64,000 nt of DNA, taken from Candidatus Hermodarchaeota archaeon. Lineage in GTDB: Archaea > Asgardarchaeota > Lokiarchaeia > Sigyniarchaeales > SOKP01. Made by a program: the position numbers and the translations under genes. The notes under the pieces are model-generated. The model saw nothing but the letters and a program-made list of their open reading frames with translations, had not been told where the DNA came from and ran no database searches. Shown piece by piece: positions 11,097 through 64,000 of the stretch. The DNA is taken from contig JBHLLP010000007.1 in assembly GCA_048885525.1 (NCBI GenBank), positions 1 to 64,000 of the forward strand, in the 5' to 3' direction. How positions within the stretch are numbered: position 1 is the stretch's first letter; each line of letters opens with the position of its first letter.

Positions 11097-11630
11097 TTAA
11101 TAATTTTGGTTAACTTTCATTCTTTTTAATTGATGTATGATTCGTCTTATTTCGGATTGTGCTGCTAGCGCATAGGAAAAACTAGGATCTATTTCTAAGG
11201 CTTTCTCATAGTAGATCAAAGCTTCTTCATACTTTTCCATCTCTTCATATATTAAGCCTAAATTATATAAACAATACTTATAATCTGGTTTAATTTTTAA
11301 GGCAGTGTCAAAAGAAATTTTTGCCTTTTCCATTTGGTTTAAATTAAAATATGCAATGCCTAGATTATAATGGGCTCTATAATCACTTGGGCTTAAATCG
11401 GTAATTCTCTTAAACACCTGTTTTGCTTTTTCATATTCTAACGTGTAATAATCATTGAGGTGTCCTCCATAATCGAATAATGTGTTAATTAATGTATTTT
11501 TGATTTCTTCGGAATTAGGATTATCTGCATATAAACGTTCTAAGATCTCTAACGCTTCTTTATATCTTTCTTGACTCTTTAAAGTTATTGCCTCTTCAAA
11601 AATTTGATTGGTGTTATTAGAATTTTTCAT
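11097..11630 (-). CDS. Tetratricopeptide repeat protein
   Basis: TPR motifs AHYNLGIAY...A...F..AL.I.P and YNLGLIY...YEEAL..YEKALEIDP. Confidence 0.9.
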   Translation of the reverse strand: MKNSNNTNQIFEEAITLKSQERYKEALEILERLYADNPNSEEIKNTLINTLFDYGGHLNDYYTLEYEKAKQVFKRITDLSPSDYRAHYNLGIAYFNLNQMEKAKISFDTALKIKPDYKYCLYNLGLIYEEMEKYEEALIYYEKALEIDPSFSYALAAQSEIRRIIHQLKRMKVNQNY

Positions 11631-16306: not shown

Positions 16307-17305
16307 TTGTCAATATTATTTTTTAACCCTCCCTCAGCGATTCTAGCCTCTGGATCTAAATTAGGTGTCGAATTAGGTGGTAGTAAAACCATTTTAAGCT
16401 TTGATTCACACCATAATTTATATTCTGAGAGCACAATTTTTAGTGAATTTAGCTGGGGTGCGTTTTATCAAGAAGAGGGGTTAACTGATCAAATAGATAC
16501 ATTTACCACGAAAGAATATGATTCTATTCGAGAAGATCCTGAGGCTTTAATAACAACGATTGCAGAAACTATTTATAATATTATTAATAATGAAAAGTTA
16601 TTCTATGGAATAGCAGATTTTGAAGTAGATGCGTTTCTTAATCAAAATACCGTGATTCCTGGGTTGAAATTAGATTACGAGATTATAAATAAACTTTTAG
16701 AAGCCCATAAAAGAACTCGAGATAAAGAATTATTTCCCAAAATTCTATCAGATTCAAAAAATATAAAAAAAATTAATATTGAAATTCAAGGAACCAAAAA
16801 ATACAAACTTCATATAATGGGAACTAAGTTGGAGGATTTAGCTGACACTTTGAGAATGGCTAAAGGTTTTGCAACAGGAATCGTCTGTACATCTCGAGGT
16901 GCCGCTAATCTTTACATTTTAAGTGATAACATTGTATATAAGGAAGATGAAATTCCAGAACTTTACATTGACCAAGAAAATTTAGCTATTATTGAAATGG
17001 GCATTCAGCGGGAACTTTTATTTCCAATAAGTTGGTTCAGAATTGATTTAGGGATTAGATCTTTAGAAACTTTAGAACTTTGGAACGAAATTGAAGAAGA
17101 TCCTAGGTTAATGAAAGCTTTTGATCGATATGAGAAATATGTTACAAGTCTAGTATATAATAAGTATCGAGACATGGCCTCTTCAGAAAAAATTGGTTCT
17201 GACTCGGAAGATGACTTCTATCAGATGACTTCTAAAGAAAGAAGAAAAGCACTCAAAGACATGGCTCAAGCAATAAGAAAATTAACTGAAGAATATAAAA
17301 AATAG
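16307..17305 (+). CDS. Hypothetical protein
   Basis: 332-aa ORF, TTG start after GAGAGG; no motif recognised. Confidence 0.75.
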   Translation: MSILFFNPPSAILASGSKLGVELGGSKTILSFDSHHNLYSESTIFSEFSWGAFYQEEGLTDQIDTFTTKEYDSIREDPEALITTIAETIYNIINNEKLFYGIADFEVDAFLNQNTVIPGLKLDYEIINKLLEAHKRTRDKELFPKILSDSKNIKKINIEIQGTKKYKLHIMGTKLEDLADTLRMAKGFATGIVCTSRGAANLYILSDNIVYKEDEIPELYIDQENLAIIEMGIQRELLFPISWFRIDLGIRSLETLELWNEIEEDPRLMKAFDRYEKYVTSLVYNKYRDMASSEKIGSDSEDDFYQMTSKERRKALKDMAQAIRKLTEEYKK

Positions 17306-18877: not shown

Positions 18878-19462
18878 ATGGTTGAAGACTATAATAAGAA
18901 CTTTGAAAAAGTAATGAAAAAGAATTTTACTAATATTTTCATTCTTTCTATTCTTGAAAGGGGACCTTCTCATGGATATAAAATAGGGAATGAAATTGAA
19001 AAACGTACTTTAGGAATGTGGAATCCATCTGCATCAACTCTATATTGGATCTTAAATAACCTAAGGGAAAAAGGGTTCATCAAAATTCTTAAAGAAGATA
19101 AAAATAAGAAAGTATATGAGATTTCAGACACAGGTAAAGAAGCATTAAGATTAATGAAATTAACTCAACGAAATATAAGAAATACATATCGTCGGTTCTT
19201 AGCAGCATCAATAGATCAAGGAACCACAATTGATTCAGAGGATCTCGAACGTTTTGATGATATTCCTTCAATTCAAGTTTTACCGATGGCTTTAAAACCT
19301 GAAAGATTTAAAGGTAATTTAACTCCTAGGGAAAGAATCCAACTTCTTGAAGCCAAAAAAATAGCATTTATAGAAACTAGAGATCGAATGAATGAGTACA
19401 TAAAAGATTTTGACAAAACTATTTTAAAAATTAGAAAGGAAATGGATGAAAAAGAAAAATAA
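18878..19462 (+). CDS. PadR family transcriptional regulator
   Basis: ILSILERGPSHGYKI, PSASTLY..L..L...G.I, KKVYEISDTG. Confidence 0.9.
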   Translation: MVEDYNKNFEKVMKKNFTNIFILSILERGPSHGYKIGNEIEKRTLGMWNPSASTLYWILNNLREKGFIKILKEDKNKKVYEISDTGKEALRLMKLTQRNIRNTYRRFLAASIDQGTTIDSEDLERFDDIPSIQVLPMALKPERFKGNLTPRERIQLLEAKKIAFIETRDRMNEYIKDFDKTILKIRKEMDEKEK

Positions 19463-26537: not shown

Positions 26538-28373
26538 GTGAAAGGCTTTGTTGGTAAACTCTTAGTAATAAACCTAAATAATCATGAAATTAGAAATGAA
26601 TCTTTGGACGAAGAAATAGCAAAGTATTTCCTTGGTGGGTCAGGTTACTGCTGTAGATATTTATATGATAAATTAGAAAAAGAAACCGACCCTTTATCCC
26701 CAGAAAACATTCTAATGTTTATGAACGGACCCTTTTCTGGTTCTAATATTCCTACTAGCGGAAAATTTGTAGTATGTGCGAAATCTCCGTTAACAGGGAT
26801 CTGGGGGGAGTCAAATTGTGGAGGTTTTTTTGGACCTGAATTGAAAAAAACTGGATATGATGGCATAGTAATAAAAGGAGCTTCAAAGAATCCAGTGTAT
26901 ATAGAAATAACGGAAAAAGATGTCAAAATTAAGGATGCTACTATGTTATGGGGAAAAGGTATTATTGAGACATCGAAAACATTAAAAGAACAATCACGTA
27001 CGCCTTTAACAAGAGTCGCCTGCATTGGTCCTGCTGGAGAAAATCTTGTGAAGTATGCAATAATAGCATCAGAAGAAAAAGCTGCAGGTAGAACTGGGAT
27101 GGGAGCCGTCATGGGTTCTAAAAAAATAAAAGCGATTACAGTTAGAGGTCCTAAAATGACATATCCCGCTGCCAATCCCGAAAACTTAAAATTAGCTGTA
27201 AAAAACGCAAGAGAACATATAATGAATGATTTTATAACGGAAATGTATAGTAAATTCGGCACATCGGGGTCTGTTGATACTTGTAATGCTTATGGAGATT
27301 TACCTATAAAGTATTGGACTTTAGGTACATGGAATAAAGCATATAATATCTCAGGAGTAACTGCACACGGGAAAATTTATACAAAACAACATCATTGCTA
27401 TGCATGTCCCATCGGATGTGCTCATAAAGCTCTAGTAGAGGAAGGAAATTACAAAATGGATCATGAAATTGAAGCTGCTGAATATGAAACCGTGGTAGGT
27501 TTTGGTTCTTTAATTTTAAATGATAACTTAGAATCAATACAAAAAGCAAATTTTCTATGCAATGATTATGGTATTGATACTATTAGTGGGAGTAGTACTA
27601 TTGCATTTATTTATCACCTATTCAACAATCAGATAATAGATTCAGATGATATTGATGGCTTAGAACCAAAATGGGGTGATATTGATACTGCCCTTATGAT
27701 GATTAAAAAAATTGCATATAGAGAGGGAATTGGAAATTTACTTGCTAATGGTTCTGATGCAGTTGGTAAATATTTTAATATTTCTCAGGATGATATCGCT
27801 ACGGTTTATGGTATGGAAGTGCCCTATCATGATTTACGTCATATTTATGGCATGGCTGTAGCGTACGCATTAGGAACTCCAAGAGGACCTTGTCATGAAT
27901 CATGTGATATGTTCGTGCTGATGTTTGGTTCTCAACTTGAAAGTTATGGAATTAAATTGCTTGAATGGCATCAAGATGATGAAGAAATGGCAATAGTGAG
28001 CGCATTAGTGCAGGATTACAGAGCTATTTATAATTCTATGATATTTTGTACTATTGCAAATCCTTTACCAGAAATTTTAATAGATGTACTTTATGCGGCA
28101 ACAGGATTGAAATTTGATATGGCAGAATTTAAAAAATTAGGAGAAAGAATTTATATGATAAAACGTCTCTTTAACCTCAAAATGGGTATTACTCCTGAAG
28201 ATGATAGATTACCCCAGATATTGCTAAATCCAGTGAAGGAAGGTGGTTCAGCAGGCAACACCCCAAACTTCGAAAAACTAAAAAAGGCATATTATAATTA
28301 CAGAACCTTTGATCTTAAAACTGGTTATCCAAATAAAGAAAAATTAAAATTTTTAGGATTAAACAACCTATAA
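26538..28373 (+). CDS. aor: Aldehyde:ferredoxin oxidoreductase (W-dependent AOR family)
   Basis: KSPLTG, CIGPAGE, AGRTGMGAVMGSK, CYACPIGC, EYET, GIDTIS, DDRLP. Confidence 0.93.
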   Translation: MKGFVGKLLVINLNNHEIRNESLDEEIAKYFLGGSGYCCRYLYDKLEKETDPLSPENILMFMNGPFSGSNIPTSGKFVVCAKSPLTGIWGESNCGGFFGPELKKTGYDGIVIKGASKNPVYIEITEKDVKIKDATMLWGKGIIETSKTLKEQSRTPLTRVACIGPAGENLVKYAIIASEEKAAGRTGMGAVMGSKKIKAITVRGPKMTYPAANPENLKLAVKNAREHIMNDFITEMYSKFGTSGSVDTCNAYGDLPIKYWTLGTWNKAYNISGVTAHGKIYTKQHHCYACPIGCAHKALVEEGNYKMDHEIEAAEYETVVGFGSLILNDNLESIQKANFLCNDYGIDTISGSSTIAFIYHLFNNQIIDSDDIDGLEPKWGDIDTALMMIKKIAYREGIGNLLANGSDAVGKYFNISQDDIATVYGMEVPYHDLRHIYGMAVAYALGTPRGPCHESCDMFVLMFGSQLESYGIKLLEWHQDDEEMAIVSALVQDYRAIYNSMIFCTIANPLPEILIDVLYAATGLKFDMAEFKKLGERIYMIKRLFNLKMGITPEDDRLPQILLNPVKEGGSAGNTPNFEKLKKAYYNYRTFDLKTGYPNKEKLKFLGLNNL

Positions 28374-58274: not shown

Positions 58275-59654
58275 TTATTTTTGAGTTAAATTTCGAAATT
58301 CAGTAATAGTCTTTTGGAGCTTTTCTAATAAATCCTTTACTTGACTGTTGAATTCTTTTAATGGAATCATTTCAGTGTTCAATTTTTCAATCTTCTCATC
58401 AATTTTTGACTGGAATGGTGCTATTGAATTCTTTATCTTCTTTTCTATACCTTGAGATAAATAATTTAGTCGATCATCCATATTTGTTATATAAGATTTG
58501 AGATTTTCCATTTTTTCTTCGAATTCTGAATTTACTTGAAAACTGTTTTCAACTTTTCCCTTCAATAAATATATTAAATTTTCAAGTTTAGTTTTAATTT
58601 CTAGGAAATTATCACCAATGAGATTTTTTAAATTACTTAAAAGTTCATTTTTGGTATCGGAAACACTTTTTGTGAGTTCTTTATTGCGAAGAACACGTGA
58701 GTTGACATAATTAAAAACACTCTTTTTAAACTCATTTGCTGTATCATTCAAAGTCTTATTAAACCAATTATCTACTTTAATTAGCCCCAATGATATCGCT
58801 TCATTCATTTTATTCACTGCTTTATTTATATATTCAGATCCTTTAGAAGTTCCTTGATCTATGTCTTTAATCCATTCTCCCATTTGATTTTTGGTTATCG
58901 CTATAAGCATTTCGGAGAGTTTCTCTGTTCCATCTTGAAAACCTGAATCTAGGGATGTCAAATCTAGAATTTTATCAAGTTCTCCTTCAATAGTCTGGGT
59001 ATCTTCAGAGATTGGGATTTCTTGTAAATCACTTGGAATTGGTTCAACAAATTCATTTATTTCTTTAATAAGAATTGGATTCCTTTTCTGAAAGTCTTCT
59101 GAGAATTTTTGAATCCATTTAAAATACTCTAATGAATTAGGTATTTCAACTTCAAAAGGTACAATATGATATTCGTCAGGTTTCATATAGGCATCTAATC
59201 TAAAAGCTTCAAATCCCAGACCTCCATCTTTGCCCATTAGTGTATGATCAAATACTATACAAAAACCATTTGGAAAATTTTCATTTTGAAAGTATTGAAT
59301 ATTCTTTAAATCACTTTCTGAGAGATATAACCCCCAGGAAGGATGAGAATGGTAATATCCTATTAACTCTGTTGAGTATTTTTTCCCAATCTGAGTAAGT
59401 AATTCATATATATCTTTATCGAATCCAATTTCTACTTTATCTCCATGAATTAGGGGTATCGCATTTTCCATAATGAGTTTATCAGTAGATGAATCATATT
59501 TTCCAATGCAGACTCCCAATACTTCGATACTTTTTTCTAATGCGTTATTACCAAAACGTAAAACATGAGTAAGCATATTTCTGAAAGCTTCTTTTTTAAT
59601 GAAAATATCTTTTTCTTTCTGATTTGATTTTTCCTTTGGTTGATTTTCATTCAA
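58275..59654 (-). CDS. JAMM/MPN+ metalloprotease with long C-terminal coiled coil
   Basis: EVLGVCIG, GYYHSHPSWGLYLSESD (HxHx7Sx2D). Confidence 0.9.
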   Translation of the reverse strand: MNENQPKEKSNQKEKDIFIKKEAFRNMLTHVLRFGNNALEKSIEVLGVCIGKYDSSTDKLIMENAIPLIHGDKVEIGFDKDIYELLTQIGKKYSTELIGYYHSHPSWGLYLSESDLKNIQYFQNENFPNGFCIVFDHTLMGKDGGLGFEAFRLDAYMKPDEYHIVPFEVEIPNSLEYFKWIQKFSEDFQKRNPILIKEINEFVEPIPSDLQEIPISEDTQTIEGELDKILDLTSLDSGFQDGTEKLSEMLIAITKNQMGEWIKDIDQGTSKGSEYINKAVNKMNEAISLGLIKVDNWFNKTLNDTANEFKKSVFNYVNSRVLRNKELTKSVSDTKNELLSNLKNLIGDNFLEIKTKLENLIYLLKGKVENSFQVNSEFEEKMENLKSYITNMDDRLNYLSQGIEKKIKNSIAPFQSKIDEKIEKLNTEMIPLKEFNSQVKDLLEKLQKTITEFRNLTQK

Positions 59655-59660
59655 TTATTC

Positions 59661-61127
59661 TTATCCCTCTTTTTTATCTAATTTTTCTATCTTATCTAAT
59701 AGCTCTTGATTTTTGCTTTTTAATTCTGCAATGGTTTTTTGAAGATTTTTAATTTCAATTTCTTGTGTGTCTAATTTATGCTTCAGCGGTGTTTTTGAGT
59801 TCTCTAATAAAATTATAGCAGCCTTTAAATCTGATAGAAAATTTTTAGCTTCTTTATTTTGATTGATAAAATTTCCAATAACCTTATTGGTATTTTTTAT
59901 AAAATTACTGGACATTCCTTCCATACCGTTATTTAAAATCTCTATAATTTCGTTTTCCATTAAATTAAAATTCTCTACTAAACTTTTTAAAATAAGTTTT
60001 TGCTCATCCAAACTTTCAGAGAATTTTAGGGCTGTAGAATTTACTTCTGATAATTTAGTTATTTGTTCATTAAATTGAAGCACAAAATTATTAATACTTT
60101 TCAGTAGTTCTTCTTTTAGAATTAATTTGAATTGTTGATTGAGTTCAGACTCGATATCTTTAAAGATGCTTTTAAAAGATTCTTGATCTGAATCAAATTC
60201 CTCGAATTTATCATCAATGTACATATCTAATTCATTTAATTTTTCTTTTAATGAAAATTTATAATCTTTTTGTAGCTTAGAAATCCCTTCACTTAGTTTG
60301 TTTTTTATAGCAATCAAATCTTTTCTCAATAGTAAATTTTTCTCAACAATATTCCGGATCATATTTTCACTCCACGAATTAAGTAATAAGATTAGCGGTG
60401 CGACGGATAACTCCAAGAATTTTGTTAAGGCAGTATTGATTGTAGAGAGAATTCTAGTAGAGTCTAAATCAGGCTTCTTTGCTAAAATCTGACTTTCACT
60501 TGGAAATGTGATATCTCCAAACAAATCGGGCATTTCATTTATTTCTAATATGGGGGGTTCTTTAGAGTGAACACAATTTATTAATTCAATTAATTTTAAA
60601 TAATATTCAATACTATCTGGGGGCTCAATAATTGTTTTTACTTCATGATAACCAGACATTTGTCCTTTTGCTGGATTATCTAATCTAAAGGTACGAAATC
60701 CTAAATCCCCGGGAGTTTCTAGATGTGCGTGGTCGAAAACAATTCCAACCGCACTTGGATTAGGAGTTTGCCACCCTAATTGGTTTCTTATATCCGTAGA
60801 TGAGAAGAATATATCTAATCCGGGGTGAGAATGATACCATCCACAACTAAACCAACCTTTTTCTGAATACTCAGCATCCACCATAGAAAATGTTACATAA
60901 TCCTCTGGGGCAAAAGCAACTTCAATTGCACCCCCATGTGAAATAGGAATAGCATCTTCGATTATAACATCTCTAATTCCTTTCTTATCTGGTTCACCCT
61001 CTAGATGACCAATGATTATTCCCATTACTTCTTTATACTGCTTTCGATCTCTTGCTTTATTTCCAAACCGGAGGACATGTATAAGCATTTTATAATAAGC
61101 TTCTGATTTAATAATAACAAAGCTCAA
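59661..61127 (-). CDS. JAMM/MPN+ metalloprotease with long C-terminal coiled coil
   Basis: EVMGIIIG, GWYHSHPGLDIFFSSTD. Confidence 0.9.
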   Translation of the reverse strand: MSFVIIKSEAYYKMLIHVLRFGNKARDRKQYKEVMGIIIGHLEGEPDKKGIRDVIIEDAIPISHGGAIEVAFAPEDYVTFSMVDAEYSEKGWFSCGWYHSHPGLDIFFSSTDIRNQLGWQTPNPSAVGIVFDHAHLETPGDLGFRTFRLDNPAKGQMSGYHEVKTIIEPPDSIEYYLKLIELINCVHSKEPPILEINEMPDLFGDITFPSESQILAKKPDLDSTRILSTINTALTKFLELSVAPLILLLNSWSENMIRNIVEKNLLLRKDLIAIKNKLSEGISKLQKDYKFSLKEKLNELDMYIDDKFEEFDSDQESFKSIFKDIESELNQQFKLILKEELLKSINNFVLQFNEQITKLSEVNSTALKFSESLDEQKLILKSLVENFNLMENEIIEILNNGMEGMSSNFIKNTNKVIGNFINQNKEAKNFLSDLKAAIILLENSKTPLKHKLDTQEIEIKNLQKTIAELKSKNQELLDKIEKLDKKEG

Positions 61128-61352
61128 TTAGAATCACCATTTATATATTAGATTTAGTTTGTTAATGATCTATATATAGTTTAATTGGTTTTAAATATTT
61201 GAATAAAAATTGAAAATTAAATCTATTCTTTTAATTTATTCTCTGTTCTATTTTCTTTTTCAGAATAGACTTTAATTATACTTTCTTATTCTCTTAGTAT
61301 TTTTAAATCAAATAATAAATAAAGCCAGAAACAGAAATTTTTCTTTAAATTA

Positions 61353-62012
61353 TCATTCATGTGGTAATGGTTTTCCACAATAAGGACAGAATTTAAATCC
61401 TAAATCTTTACCACAATGTGGGCAAAAAGAACCTTCTGAGCTCACTGGGGCTTTTTCTTCAACACCTTCTTTTGGTATTGAAGGTAATTGTCGTGATGTC
61501 TTTAAGGTTGATACTGATGAGTCTGTATTGGTAGTTGGTACTTGTTTAGCTCTTACTCTCTCTTTAAAAGCTTGTCTTCTCTCTTCTTCACGTTCTTCTT
61601 GAGATTTCGTTCCTTCTGTCTTTACCCACCCTTGCGCTTGAGGTCTTTTTAATTCACTTTGAGGAACTTTTGCTAACTCTACTTCTTTTGTTTCTGAAAT
61701 AGGTGCTACTACTTTTCTTTCTTCCTTCTTCTTTAATGCTTGTTTAACAAGAGCCTGAGTTGTTTTCATTACTTGATGGGGATTAATATTAGGGATTGCC
61801 ACGGTTCTAAGAACCCAGCCTACAATAATATTCTGGTTTGGGAAATCGCCATCGACATCTTCATCCTTGAAAATATAGGAATCTATTACATCTCTTCCTT
61901 TTATTAAGCGCACTGCCCATTTTTCGTTTATTTCTCCTAATTGGATTCTATATGAGGTACCAGGTACTCCTAACTCGCTTGTAAGCGGAATAAAGCCTTT
62001 TTCAGTCAACAT
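61353..62012 (-). CDS. Hypothetical protein with charged linker and C-terminal double zinc ribbon
   Basis: FCPHCG...FCPYCG. Confidence 0.8.
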   Translation of the reverse strand: MLTEKGFIPLTSELGVPGTSYRIQLGEINEKWAVRLIKGRDVIDSYIFKDEDVDGDFPNQNIIVGWVLRTVAIPNINPHQVMKTTQALVKQALKKKEERKVVAPISETKEVELAKVPQSELKRPQAQGWVKTEGTKSQEEREEERRQAFKERVRAKQVPTTNTDSSVSTLKTSRQLPSIPKEGVEEKAPVSSEGSFCPHCGKDLGFKFCPYCGKPLPHE

Positions 62013-62237
62013 TATTCACTTTTTGTATATAAGTAATATGATTTAAGTAATATATTAATGATAAATTTCGAATTTAAAATATTATTTATTTATAGTAAAA
62101 ATTTATGCGAATGTTATAAATTTTTTCTGAAGGATTAACTTGATAGGCTAAAAATTGGTTGAATTCTAAAATTTTGATCATAAGATTAAAAACACATAAA
62201 TACAAATTTTTCTATTACTTTGTAAAAAACCATTAAA

Positions 62238-63237
62238 GTGAAAAAAATGGGAAAAGTAATAATCCCAAAAAAAGTATATTTATGTTTAGTAGGAGCGTCA
62301 GTTAGGTTTGCTAACGTACGTATACCTAAAGATGATTGGTTAGAAGTGAGTGGTATATTTACAGGAAGAAATCAAGGAGAAGATGTCATCATCACAGAAT
62401 GTTACCCCATAATGCATCAAGAATTAGATAAAGATGCAGTTATCGATCAATATAAATGGAGTGATGAAGACTATGAAGCTTTATACATTATCGACGAATT
62501 AGCCTTCTCAAGAGATCCCCCAGAGTTTGTAGTTGGATGGTGGCACAGTCATCCAGGCTTTCAGAGCATTGGAGTTCCCACGCTCTAGCTAAAAGGTAAT
62601 GATGAGCCATATTGATATCCAAACTACTCTATCATACCAGCAAAATAATCCTTTAGCAATATCACTGGTTTTCAACCCTACAAGACTCATACGTCAGATC
62701 GAAGTAGCATATAAAAAAGGAGATCCCGATATACAATTAAAAAATGATCCTGGGTTTGAGATATTTAGGTTAGATGATATTAATCGAGGACTTGAAGCAT
62801 CTTATCATCCGGTAGATTATAAAATTGAAGGATATGATAGTATGGAACAATTAGTCAATTTAACTCAGAAGTTTACAATAGATATTACTAATTTCTTTCC
62901 TAAAACTAATGTTCCTAAAATGTATGATAAATTTGTTAATGATAGAATTACTGAATTAAATTCAAGATTTCAGGGAACTGAAGAATATCTGACCACTTTA
63001 ACCATCCGTGGGGAAAAAGAGCGAATTCCAGATGTCTTAAAGAATCAAAGTGAAGAAATCAGTAAATTTGTAGCAGAAACTTCGATTAAGATAGATCGTA
63101 TTAAGGAATTTATGGATTATTTAGAATATAAAGAAAGAGACACCATAGTACCTCAGATTGAGACAATTATACACAAATGGGATGATATGGTTGCGGGAGT
63201 AGATAAGAGAATAAAACAGCTAAAGAAGAAATTTTAA
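62238..63237 (+). CDS. JAMM/MPN+ metalloprotease with coiled-coil tail; proposed join(62238..62561,62593..63237), 322 aa (319 aa from ATG 62247)
   Basis: ORFs 62238..62588 and 62599..63237 hold the two halves of one JAMM motif. Removing 31 nt gives WWHSHPGFKVMMSHID. Confidence 0.88.
62562..62592 (+). other. Putative 31-nt bulge-helix-bulge mRNA intron
   Basis: GGCU(62556-59)/AGCU(62587-90) 4-bp helix; bulges UU^C and AA^A; intron stem AGAGC/GCUCU. The cut sites match the junction required to restore the protein. Confidence 0.8.
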
Positions 63238-63357
63238 ATTTAATAATTTTCATCTTATTTTTCATTTTGATAAATTTTTATTTGATTACACTTTTTTTTG
63301 ATTAAATATCAATTATTTAAAATAAAATCAGAGAATTTTTAGAATATAATCATTATC

Positions 63358-64000
63358 ATGAAAAAAATTAATTTTCCTTTTACAGCGATTCTTGGCCAAG
63401 AAAAAATGAAGATGGGGCTAATTTTAAACGTTATTGACCCTCAAATAGGTGGTATCTTATTAACTGGTCAACAAGGTACAGGAAAAAGCACAGCTGTAAG
63501 ATCTCTCGTGGAATTGATGCCCCAAATTGAAGTAGTTAAAGATTGTGAGTTTTCTTGTGATCCTCATTCTGATATAGATGATTTATGTCAAAATTGTATA
63601 GAAAGAAAGGAAAAAAAGCAAATAAAAACAAAGTTCCGGGATATGTGGCTTGTAAATTTGCCTTTAGGAGTCACAGAAGATATGGTTTGTGGAAGTTTAT
63701 CTATAGATAAGGTATTAACCGAAGGAATAAGAGCTTTACATCCTGGGCTACTTGCTAAAGCAAACAGAGGTATTCTATATGTAGATGAGATTAATCTACT
63801 CCAAGATCATATTGTTGATGTACTTTTAGATTCTGCAGCTTCAGGTGTAAATATAATAGAAAGAGAAGGAATATCTATATCACATCCTTCAAGATTCGTG
63901 TTAGTTGGTTCAATGAACCCAGAAGAAGGTGATTTAAGACCACAAATTGCTGATCGTCTTGGTTTAGAGGTAAGAATAAAAGCACCAAGAGATTCAGAAT
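63358..64000 (+). CDS. Mg/Co-chelatase ChlI/BchI-like AAA+ ATPase (partial, runs off the window)
   Basis: MKKINFPFTAILGQEKMK, GQQGTGKST, PGLLAKANRGILYVDEINLL, GSMNPEEG.LRPQ..DR. Confidence 0.9.
   Translation, partial: MKKINFPFTAILGQEKMKMGLILNVIDPQIGGILLTGQQGTGKSTAVRSLVELMPQIEVVKDCEFSCDPHSDIDDLCQNCIERKEKKQIKTKFRDMWLVNLPLGVTEDMVCGSLSIDKVLTEGIRALHPGLLAKANRGILYVDEINLLQDHIVDVLLDSAASGVNIIEREGISISHPSRFVLVGSMNPEEGDLRPQIADRLGLEVRIKAPRDSE

What the first reader, a model, noticed from the sequence alone, without database searches (positions are those of the whole stretch)
62548..62603. BHB-type mRNA intron splitting the active-site motif of a JAMM/MPN protease gene
Seen in sequence: the ORF track breaks this gene into two pieces (62238..62588 and 62599..63237) in different frames. 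The first ends ...WWHSHPGF and the second starts (KV)MMSHID. Deleting exactly 62562-62592 (CAGAGCATTGGAGTTCCCACGCTCTAGCTAA, 31 nt) restores the frame and gives HSH-PGFKVMM-S-HI-D. That is the HxHx7Sx2D spacing also seen in the two neighbouring paralogs (HSHPGLDIFFSSTD, HSHPSWGLYLSESD). Independently, the RNA folds as a bulge-helix-bulge. The central helix is G56-U90, G57-C89, C58-G88, U59-A87. The 5' bulge is U60-U61-C62 and the 3' bulge is A91-A92-A93. The intron stem is AGAGC(63-67)/GCUCU(82-86), and an imperfect exon stem forms from CC/GG and GUCAU/AUGAU. Established: archaeal splicing endonuclease (EndA) cuts after the second nucleotide of each 3-nt bulge, which here means after 62561 and after 62592, exactly the protein-predicted junction. 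The best-known archaeal mRNA intron of this type is in crenarchaeal cbf5. Inference: this Asgard-like archaeon splices protein-coding mRNAs with EndA/RtcB. The unspliced transcript stops at TAG 62586-88 and would lack the catalytic Ser/Asp, so splicing could act as an on/off switch for a deubiquitinase-like enzyme, loosely analogous to Ire1/RtcB splicing of HAC1/XBP1.
Basis: partly seen in the sequence, partly recalled or inferred. Interest (0 to 1): 0.96.

Follow-up and report, generated by a model that had tools for sequence, protein, structure and literature searches.

The report
tRNA-type intron splits Asgard protease gene
A ubiquitin-protease-like (JAMM) gene of an uncultured Asgard (Lokiarchaeia-type) archaeon is cut in the middle of its active-site motif by a 31-base insert shaped like a tRNA intron, so its messenger RNA very probably has to be cut and rejoined by the tRNA-splicing enzymes, which the papers I could search document inside a coding sequence for only one archaeal gene (cbf5).

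Summary
Observation confirmed. A 31-nt insert (62562-62592) breaks the JAMM gene between HSH and SxxD. Removing it gives GWWHSHPGFKVMMSHID, the commonest form in intronless orthologues. Two other NCBI assemblies carry the identical insert. 12 of 50 same-genus orthologues carry a homologous 29-32-nt insert at the same site. All 15 distinct inserts keep the 4-bp central helix (60/60 pairs), with compensatory exon-intron changes; the two codons after the insert vary only synonymously, and both exons show dN far below dS. The genome encodes a two-subunit EndA with the relaxed-substrate loop, and RtcB. A motif-free genome comparison found three more 30-31-nt BHB-shaped inserts in unrelated genes. 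Corrections: the motif is a relaxed HBh' (A55/A94 mismatch), and the protein motif alone allows nine registers; orthologues fix the junction. The Ire1-like switch is unsupported: presence is patchy (at least 7 gains or losses), six other intact JAMM motifs exist, and housekeeping genes carry such inserts too. This scan noted the same phenomenon before on other DNA, in this and other Lokiarchaeia genomes.

The parts
62238..62561 (+). Exon 1 of the JAMM/MPN+ gene (GTG 62238 or ATG 62247); carries the presumed catalytic Glu (codon 62343-45) and the two Zn-ligand His (62544-46, 62550-52)
   Evidence: Pfam JAB E=6.5e-10; an intronless orthologue aligns to CSN5/Rpn11 structures; Glu and HSH kept in all 12 carriers
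62562..62592 (+). 31-nt intron; contains TAG 62586-88 (exon-1 frame) and TAA 62590-92 (exon-2 frame); intron stem 62563-67/62582-86 and a small apical hairpin
   Evidence: Absent at exactly this site in 38 of 50 congeneric orthologues; homologous 29-32-nt insert in 12
62556..62559 (+). 5' (exon) strand of the BHB central helix, also the Gly-Phe codons
   Evidence: Pairs with 62587-62590 in 15/15 distinct inserts, with compensatory changes
62560..62562 (+). 5' 3-nt bulge; predicted EndA cut after 62561
   Evidence: Sequence; cut rule from established BHB biochemistry
62587..62590 (+). 3' (intron) strand of the BHB central helix
62591..62593 (+). 3' bulge/loop (not closed: A55/A94 mismatch, then C54-G95, C53-G96); predicted cut after 62592
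62593..63237 (+). Exon 2: Lys-Val-Met-Met, motif Ser (62605-07), third Zn ligand Asp (62614-16), rest of the MPN domain and a tail with no Pfam match; gene callers miscall it as a separate 212-aa gene from ATG 62599
   Evidence: dN far below dS in carriers
58275..61127 (-). Context: two intact JAMM paralogues (not part of the intron)
   Evidence: Pfam JAB hits; intact motifs
63358..64000 (+). Context: downstream ChlI/ChlD-like AAA+-vWA gene, conserved neighbour

Best explanation
The insert is a genuine tRNA-type intron in a protein-coding pre-mRNA. The transcript folds the last six nt of exon 1 against the 3' end of the intron into a relaxed bulge-helix-bulge (HBh'). The two-subunit EndA cuts after 62561 and after 62592, and RtcB joins the exons to give an mRNA for a full-length JAMM metalloprotease (inferred steps: transcription, cleavage, ligation; shown: geometry, frame, conservation, enzyme genes). 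The intron is one of several ~30-nt BHB introns in unrelated genes of this genome. It is most likely constitutively removed and nearly neutral; it arose once in this genus and has since been lost precisely, or moved by recombination, many times.
For: Most intronless orthologues read exactly the spliced motif, and none needs an extra residue there. 15 distinct inserts of 29, 30, 31 and 32 nt all break the frame or stop it, and all keep the central helix 60/60, with C-G to U-A (3) and G-C to A-U (1, with Gly to Asp) changes; 0/500 shuffles reach the covariation score and slid controls drop to 19-54% paired. Each carrier has at least one canonically closed bulge: 10 via the intron stem, 5 via the exon stem. 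The Lys-Val codons between the intron and the first ATG vary only synonymously in 15/15, so they are translated. Both exons have dN/dS of about 0.1-0.2 in carrier pairs and all 12 spliced frames are full length. EndA alpha is closest to the Aeropyrum enzyme and has its L1/CSL loop; a second EndA subunit and RtcB are present (PMC5829648). The motif-free census gives 4 well-supported internal frame-breaking inserts, all 30-31 nt and BHB-shaped at the homology-fixed junction. AMP phosphorylase carries its insert in 21 of 45 genomes, with the helix full in 10/10 examined.
Against: The motif is relaxed, and the BHB is a minor fold in short fragments. Kin are not independent: the exon-side codon bias (12/12 vs 20/38) is not significant on independent pairs (7 pairs, never the opposite direction, median p 0.25). 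The structure was taken from one of the aligned sequences, which favours it in the slide control.
Confidence: 0.88

Rival explanations
1. Regulated splicing switch: the intron is spliced, but conditionally, turning the protease on under some stress, as Ire1/RtcB do for HAC1/XBP1.
For: The unspliced product lacks Ser and Asp of the motif. The intron sequence is far better conserved than synonymous sites between distant carriers (L006 vs L045 differ at about 3 of 31 positions at dS 0.9-2.2). A negative-regulator role was proposed for the cbf5 intron (PMC2738675).
Against: 38 of 50 congeners lack it and at least 7 changes are forced by well-supported branches; not found in other genera searched. 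Six other intact JAMM motifs are in the genome. Unrelated housekeeping genes have the same kind of insert. EndA is a housekeeping enzyme with no known sensor (own knowledge).
Confidence: 0.1
2. Split gene without splicing: exon 1 and exon 2 (from ATG 62599) are translated as two polypeptides that reassemble, and the hairpin couples translation.
For: An ATG-ATG sits 6 nt after the insert with a purine-rich stretch before it; gene callers call it this way in many assemblies.
Against: The Lys-Val codons upstream of the ATG stay synonymous. The unspliced exon-1 tails vary from 1 to 12 unrelated residues. The conserved pairing has the 3-4-3 geometry at the very junction. The break is inside the Zn-binding motif.
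Confidence: 0.04
3. Ribosomal frameshift or bypass over the hairpin.
For: A hairpin follows a U-run, and stops flank it.
Against: Inserts of 29, 30, 31 and 32 nt need all three frame changes and have stops in both frames; take-off and landing codons do not match.
Confidence: 0.02
4. Inactivated gene or assembly artefact.
For: Intact paralogues make the gene possibly dispensable; two congeneric copies are broken in other ways (L053, L054).
Against: Identical insert in two other assemblies; homologous but diverged inserts from many projects; purifying selection on both exons; no further lesion in 12 carriers.
Confidence: 0.02

Closest known systems
cbf5 pre-mRNA intron of Desulfurococcales and Sulfolobales (Watanabe 2002; Yoshinari 2006; Yokobori 2009, PMC2738675)
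   Same: Short (16-44 nt there, 29-32 nt here) ORF-less intron in a coding sequence; relaxed BHB; sits in the catalytic motif; two-subunit EndA; lineage-specific absence; intron sequences share a common origin.
   Different: Different gene and phylum. cbf5 itself is intact here. Presence flips at least 7 times within one genus, not twice in two orders. It is one of several such introns per genome, not a lone case. Splicing was shown by cDNA for cbf5 and is not shown here.
Non-canonical BHB (HBh'/hBH) tRNA introns of Asgard archaea (PMC11291895; bioRxiv 10.64898/2026.10.13.758758)
   Same: Same motif class and enzyme architecture; repeated gains; similar size; many tRNA genes of this genome are called with introns.
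   Different: Those studies treat tRNA genes only; the 2026 preprint has no occurrence of 'mRNA' or 'cbf5'.
5' UTR intron of Haloferax HVO_1309 (PMC7714728)
   Same: EndA-cut BHB intron in an mRNA.
   Different: In an untranslated leader, 46 nt, does not break a reading frame; different EndA type.
HAC1/XBP1 unconventional splicing (Ire1 + Trl1/RtcB) (own knowledge)
   Same: Short frame-shifting intron joined by a tRNA ligase.
   Different: Cut by a signal-activated RNase at two stem-loops, not by EndA at a BHB; conserved and regulatory, whereas this intron is patchy and shows no sign of regulation.
JAMM/MPN+ metalloproteases CSN5, Rpn11, BRCC36, AMSH
   Same: E...HxHx7SxxD; best PDB matches are CSN5 and Rpn11 (E about 1e-10 to 1e-8).
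   Different: About 170-aa lineage-specific tail with no Pfam match; substrate untested.

Membership tests
EndA-spliced BHB intron | 4-bp central helix between exon end and intron end | tested here: met
   60/60 cells paired in 15 distinct inserts, two of four pairs with compensatory changes
EndA-spliced BHB intron (canonical hBHBh') | Both 3-nt bulges closed by flanking helices | tested here: not met
   A55/A94 mismatch in this window; only L195 is fully canonical
EndA-spliced BHB intron (relaxed HBh'/hBH) | At least one bulge closed by a helix of 3 bp or more | tested here: met
   10 inserts via the intron stem, 5 via the exon stem
EndA-spliced BHB intron | Cuts after the second bulge nucleotide coincide with the exon boundaries | tested here: met
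   The single best orthologue-defined junction is 62561/62593; only this register has the full helix in all carriers
EndA-spliced BHB intron | Host encodes an EndA able to cut relaxed motifs, and RtcB | tested here: met
   Two EndA subunits, the alpha with the L1/CSL loop aligned to Aeropyrum; RtcB E=1.9e-171. Activity is inferred from homology.
EndA-spliced BHB intron | Spliced RNA or excised (circular) intron observed; cleavage by EndA | not testable with these tools
cbf5 intron family | Located in cbf5 | tested here: not met
   The host gene is a JAMM protease; cbf5 of this genome is uninterrupted over the motif region read
Group I/II or homing-endonuclease intron | Ribozyme core or ORF; Rfam match | tested here: not met
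   31 nt; no Rfam match to E=1
Ire1-type regulated splicing | Signal-dependent splicing, conserved across the lineage | tested here: inconclusive
   Conservation not met (12/50); condition dependence not testable
JAMM/MPN+ protease | E...HxHx7SxxD in the joined product | tested here: met
JAMM/MPN+ protease | Isopeptidase activity on a ubiquitin-like conjugate | not testable with these tools
   No assay possible

The most novel reading that the evidence does not exclude
Lokiarchaeia routinely splice protein-coding mRNAs with the tRNA machinery: several to perhaps ten or more ~30-nt BHB introns per genome sit in conserved motifs of unrelated genes and are gained, lost or exchanged within a genus. 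The archaeal relatives of eukaryotes would then have a genome-wide, non-spliceosomal mRNA-intron system that hides genes from annotation and could be a source for eukaryotic tRNA-ligase-dependent mRNA splicing.
Probability: 0.75. Interest if true: 0.9.

Novelty: new variant of a known kind. Interest (0 to 1): 0.8.

Why it matters
The papers I could search report only cbf5 as an archaeal coding sequence with an EndA-removed intron (PMC7714728, 2020: one mRNA), plus one 5' UTR case; none reports this for Asgard genes, but most subscription papers were not searchable. If splicing is confirmed, mRNA introns are a recurring feature of Lokiarchaeia. Asgard gene catalogues then contain systematically split eukaryote-like proteins (about 20 of the top 120 database homologues are miscalled exon-2 fragments), and intron gain and loss in the lineage closest to eukaryotes becomes directly testable with a named junction.

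Tried and rejected
No full-length database protein is near-identical to a carrier's exon 2 (best 84% for this gene), so there is no cDNA-like record. P0044 looked like a split gene but is an intronless contig end. Ab initio BHB scans of the genome, with and without a coding-potential filter, were too noisy and showed no clear length peak; the coding filter even dropped this intron. The self-paralogue census recovered only this gene. One 31-nt census hit (C12+40940) is a gene-boundary artefact and was rejected. No second copy of the intron sequence in the genome (next best 21/31). The type-B intron core occurs among archaeal genomes only in this gene; the six other hits were in bacterial records and were taken as chance. 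No excess synonymous identity near the junction among carriers, so no general co-conversion tract; separate exon trees still need 9 changes. JAMM and AMP-phosphorylase introns do not co-occur significantly (6/9 vs 14/33, p=0.27). Rfam gave nothing. The sigma-70 promoter scan is at chance level and not suited to archaea. No fold or complex prediction was run: the joined protein has no reference, and halves of split genes tend to pass regardless.

Full report
Observation. The sequence at 62548-62603 is as described. The JAB domain hit stops at the end of the first ORF, and both reading frames have a stop inside 62562-62592. Removing those 31 nt gives one open frame of 322 aa from GTG 62238. The RNA pairs listed are all real, but A55 faces A94, so the motif is the relaxed HBh' form. 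It is a minor fold in a 61-73-nt fragment (helix pairs about 0.06; z -2.1 for the 73-mer) and the major one with 50-200 nt of flank (0.56-0.82).

Host and artefact check. Homologues and record titles place the organism in Promethearchaeota/Lokiarchaeia. Two NCBI assemblies carry the gene and insert without a single difference.

Orthologues. The gene was found in 122 of 135 family genomes. Of 50 congeneric copies read, 38 are continuous, most of them with exactly the spliced motif, and 12 carry an insert at the same phase-0 site. No insert was found in the copies read from other genera and families, and the remaining ones have full-length open frames or are contig-end fragments. Metagenome and assembly look-ups added more, giving 15 distinct inserts: ten of 31 nt, three of 30, one of 29 and one of 32. 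They align as one homologous family with two subtypes. All stop or shift the frame, leaving tails of 1-12 residues.

Structure under selection. The central helix is paired in 60 of 60 cells. One pair changes C-G to U-A in three inserts, another changes G-C to A-U together with a Gly-to-Asp codon change, and six of nine intron-stem pairs also show two-sided changes. No shuffle of 500 reaches the covariation score, and sliding the partners drops pairing from 84.5% to 19-54%; relatedness and the origin of the structure inflate these controls somewhat. Ten inserts close the 5' bulge with an intron stem of 3-9 bp. The five subtype-B inserts lack that stem but all have the U-A pair that closes the 3' bulge with a 3-bp exon stem. 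The Gly codon ends in a pyrimidine in 12/12 carriers against 20/38 non-carriers, but this is not significant on independent pairs.

The gene is alive and read across the junction. All 12 spliced frames are full length with the catalytic Glu, His, His, Ser and Asp. dN is about 5-10 times below dS in both exons for carrier pairs. The Lys and Val codons between the intron and the first ATG take six codon combinations, all synonymous, which argues against exon 2 being a separate gene. Four insert lengths with stops in both frames argue against frameshifting. An intronless orthologue matches CSN5 and Rpn11 best; that His-His-Asp bind zinc is established JAMM biochemistry.

Machinery. The genome has two EndA subunits and RtcB. 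One subunit is closest to the Aeropyrum catalytic subunit and aligns through its L1/CSL loop including the lysine; the other lacks the catalytic His region and is read as the structural subunit. PMC5829648 reports that Asgard EndA is of this two-subunit type with L1, the feature that lets the crenarchaeal enzyme cut relaxed motifs.

Not a lone case. I compared this genome with about half of a congener's genome without using the motif. Among about 1,300 queries with an orthologue (a count that includes shadow frames), the well-supported internal frame-breaking insertions were four, all 30-31 nt: this gene, AMP phosphorylase, a CdhA-like subunit and a response regulator. Each has a BHB shape at the homology-fixed junction, which random coding positions give at 0.3-0.5%. 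The congener has two of its own (uL11, 28 nt; another gene, 30 nt). AMP phosphorylase is interrupted in 21 of 45 congeners, with a full helix in all ten examined. The response regulator is interrupted in about four. Leads from earlier scan notes (mevalonate kinase, selD, a Rab-like GTPase) also restore their family motifs at the BHB register, checked by motif only. That makes seven candidates I examined in this genome, and the census covers only half of a proteome. Earlier notes of this scan report the same kind of insert in this and other Lokiarchaeia genomes; they are AI notes and are not counted as evidence.

History. Presence needs 9 changes on the gene tree, at least 7 forced by well-supported branches. 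Both subtypes occur in both main clades, and subtype-B introns are nearly identical between genes whose synonymous sites are saturated. One origin followed by many precise losses, or spread by recombination, both fit. Two carriers (L030, L041) are more diverged from their intronless sisters just upstream of the junction than downstream (0.79 vs 0.95; 0.82 vs 0.94), a hint of segment exchange that is not general. Direction cannot be told from these counts.

Mechanism and rivals. Most likely the pre-mRNA is cut by EndA after 62561 and 62592 and ligated by RtcB, constitutively (0.88 for splicing; the share in which it is also regulated is about 0.1). Sites in conserved motifs may reflect selection against imprecise loss and detection bias (inference). 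The switch idea lacks support: patchy presence, six other intact JAMM motifs, and the same inserts in housekeeping genes. Split gene, recoding and pseudogene or artefact together get under 0.1.

Literature. cbf5 is the known coding-sequence case, 16-44 nt, relaxed motif, breaking the catalytic codon (PMC2738675). A 2020 study names it as the one mRNA case besides its own 5' UTR intron (PMC7714728). Asgard intron papers deal with tRNA only (PMC11291895; bioRxiv 10.64898/2026.10.13.758758). Eight searches found no report of Asgard mRNA introns; subscription journals are mostly not covered.

Verdict. A real, conserved, relaxed-BHB intron in a JAMM gene: a new variant of the cbf5 kind, notable for lineage, scale and turnover. 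Splicing is strongly inferred but not observed. Interest 0.8.

Noticed in passing
L219 (G000 C6, about 109044-109073, + strand): AMP phosphorylase: 30-nt stop-containing BHB insert in the DKHSTGG motif; present in 21 of 45 congeners, helix full in 10/10 examined.
   Followed up: yes
G000 C2, minus strand, about 17126-17156: CdhA-like (acetyl-CoA decarbonylase/synthase alpha, my reading of the motif) gene: 31-nt insert in the Cys cluster, helix 3/4, 8-bp intron and exon stems; the congener is continuous.
   Followed up: partly
L256 (G000 C52, minus strand, about 11536-11566): Single-domain response regulator: 31-nt BHB insert just after the acidic pair; about four congeners interrupted, one (L257) with a dissimilar 30-nt insert at the same site.
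   Followed up: partly
G000 C10 (-, near 11500), C16 (+, near 19010), C39 (+, near 27861): Mevalonate kinase, selD (right after the UGA codon) and a Rab-like GTPase have 31-32-nt inserts whose BHB register restores the family motif; leads from earlier notes, checked by motif only.
   Followed up: partly
L143 (G006 C1 about 1129379) and L176 (about 2599625): The congener G006 has a 28-nt BHB insert in ribosomal protein uL11 and a 30-nt one in another conserved gene.
   Followed up: partly
window 58275-64000: Conserved block: two long-tailed JAMM paralogues and a zinc-ribbon protein on the minus strand, the divergent third JAMM, then an AAA+-vWA gene; seven JAMM-type motifs in the genome in all.
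   Followed up: partly
L054 (G148) and L053 (G109): Other broken copies of this gene without the intron: a frameshift near residue 41, and a copy lacking exon 1.
   Followed up: no
L068, L069, L070, L085, L088, L090: A subgroup of orthologues in other genera has an altered motif end (MLSGFGD), with the Asp one residue further from the Ser.
   Followed up: no
protein database: About 20 of the top 120 homologues are 210-212-aa fragments starting at the Met after the junction, mostly miscalled exon 2; one checked was a contig-end fragment.
   Followed up: partly
G000 whole genome: ARAGORN finds 34 tRNA genes, about 20 called with introns, many with doubtful boundaries; non-canonical tRNA introns are probably missed.
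   Followed up: no
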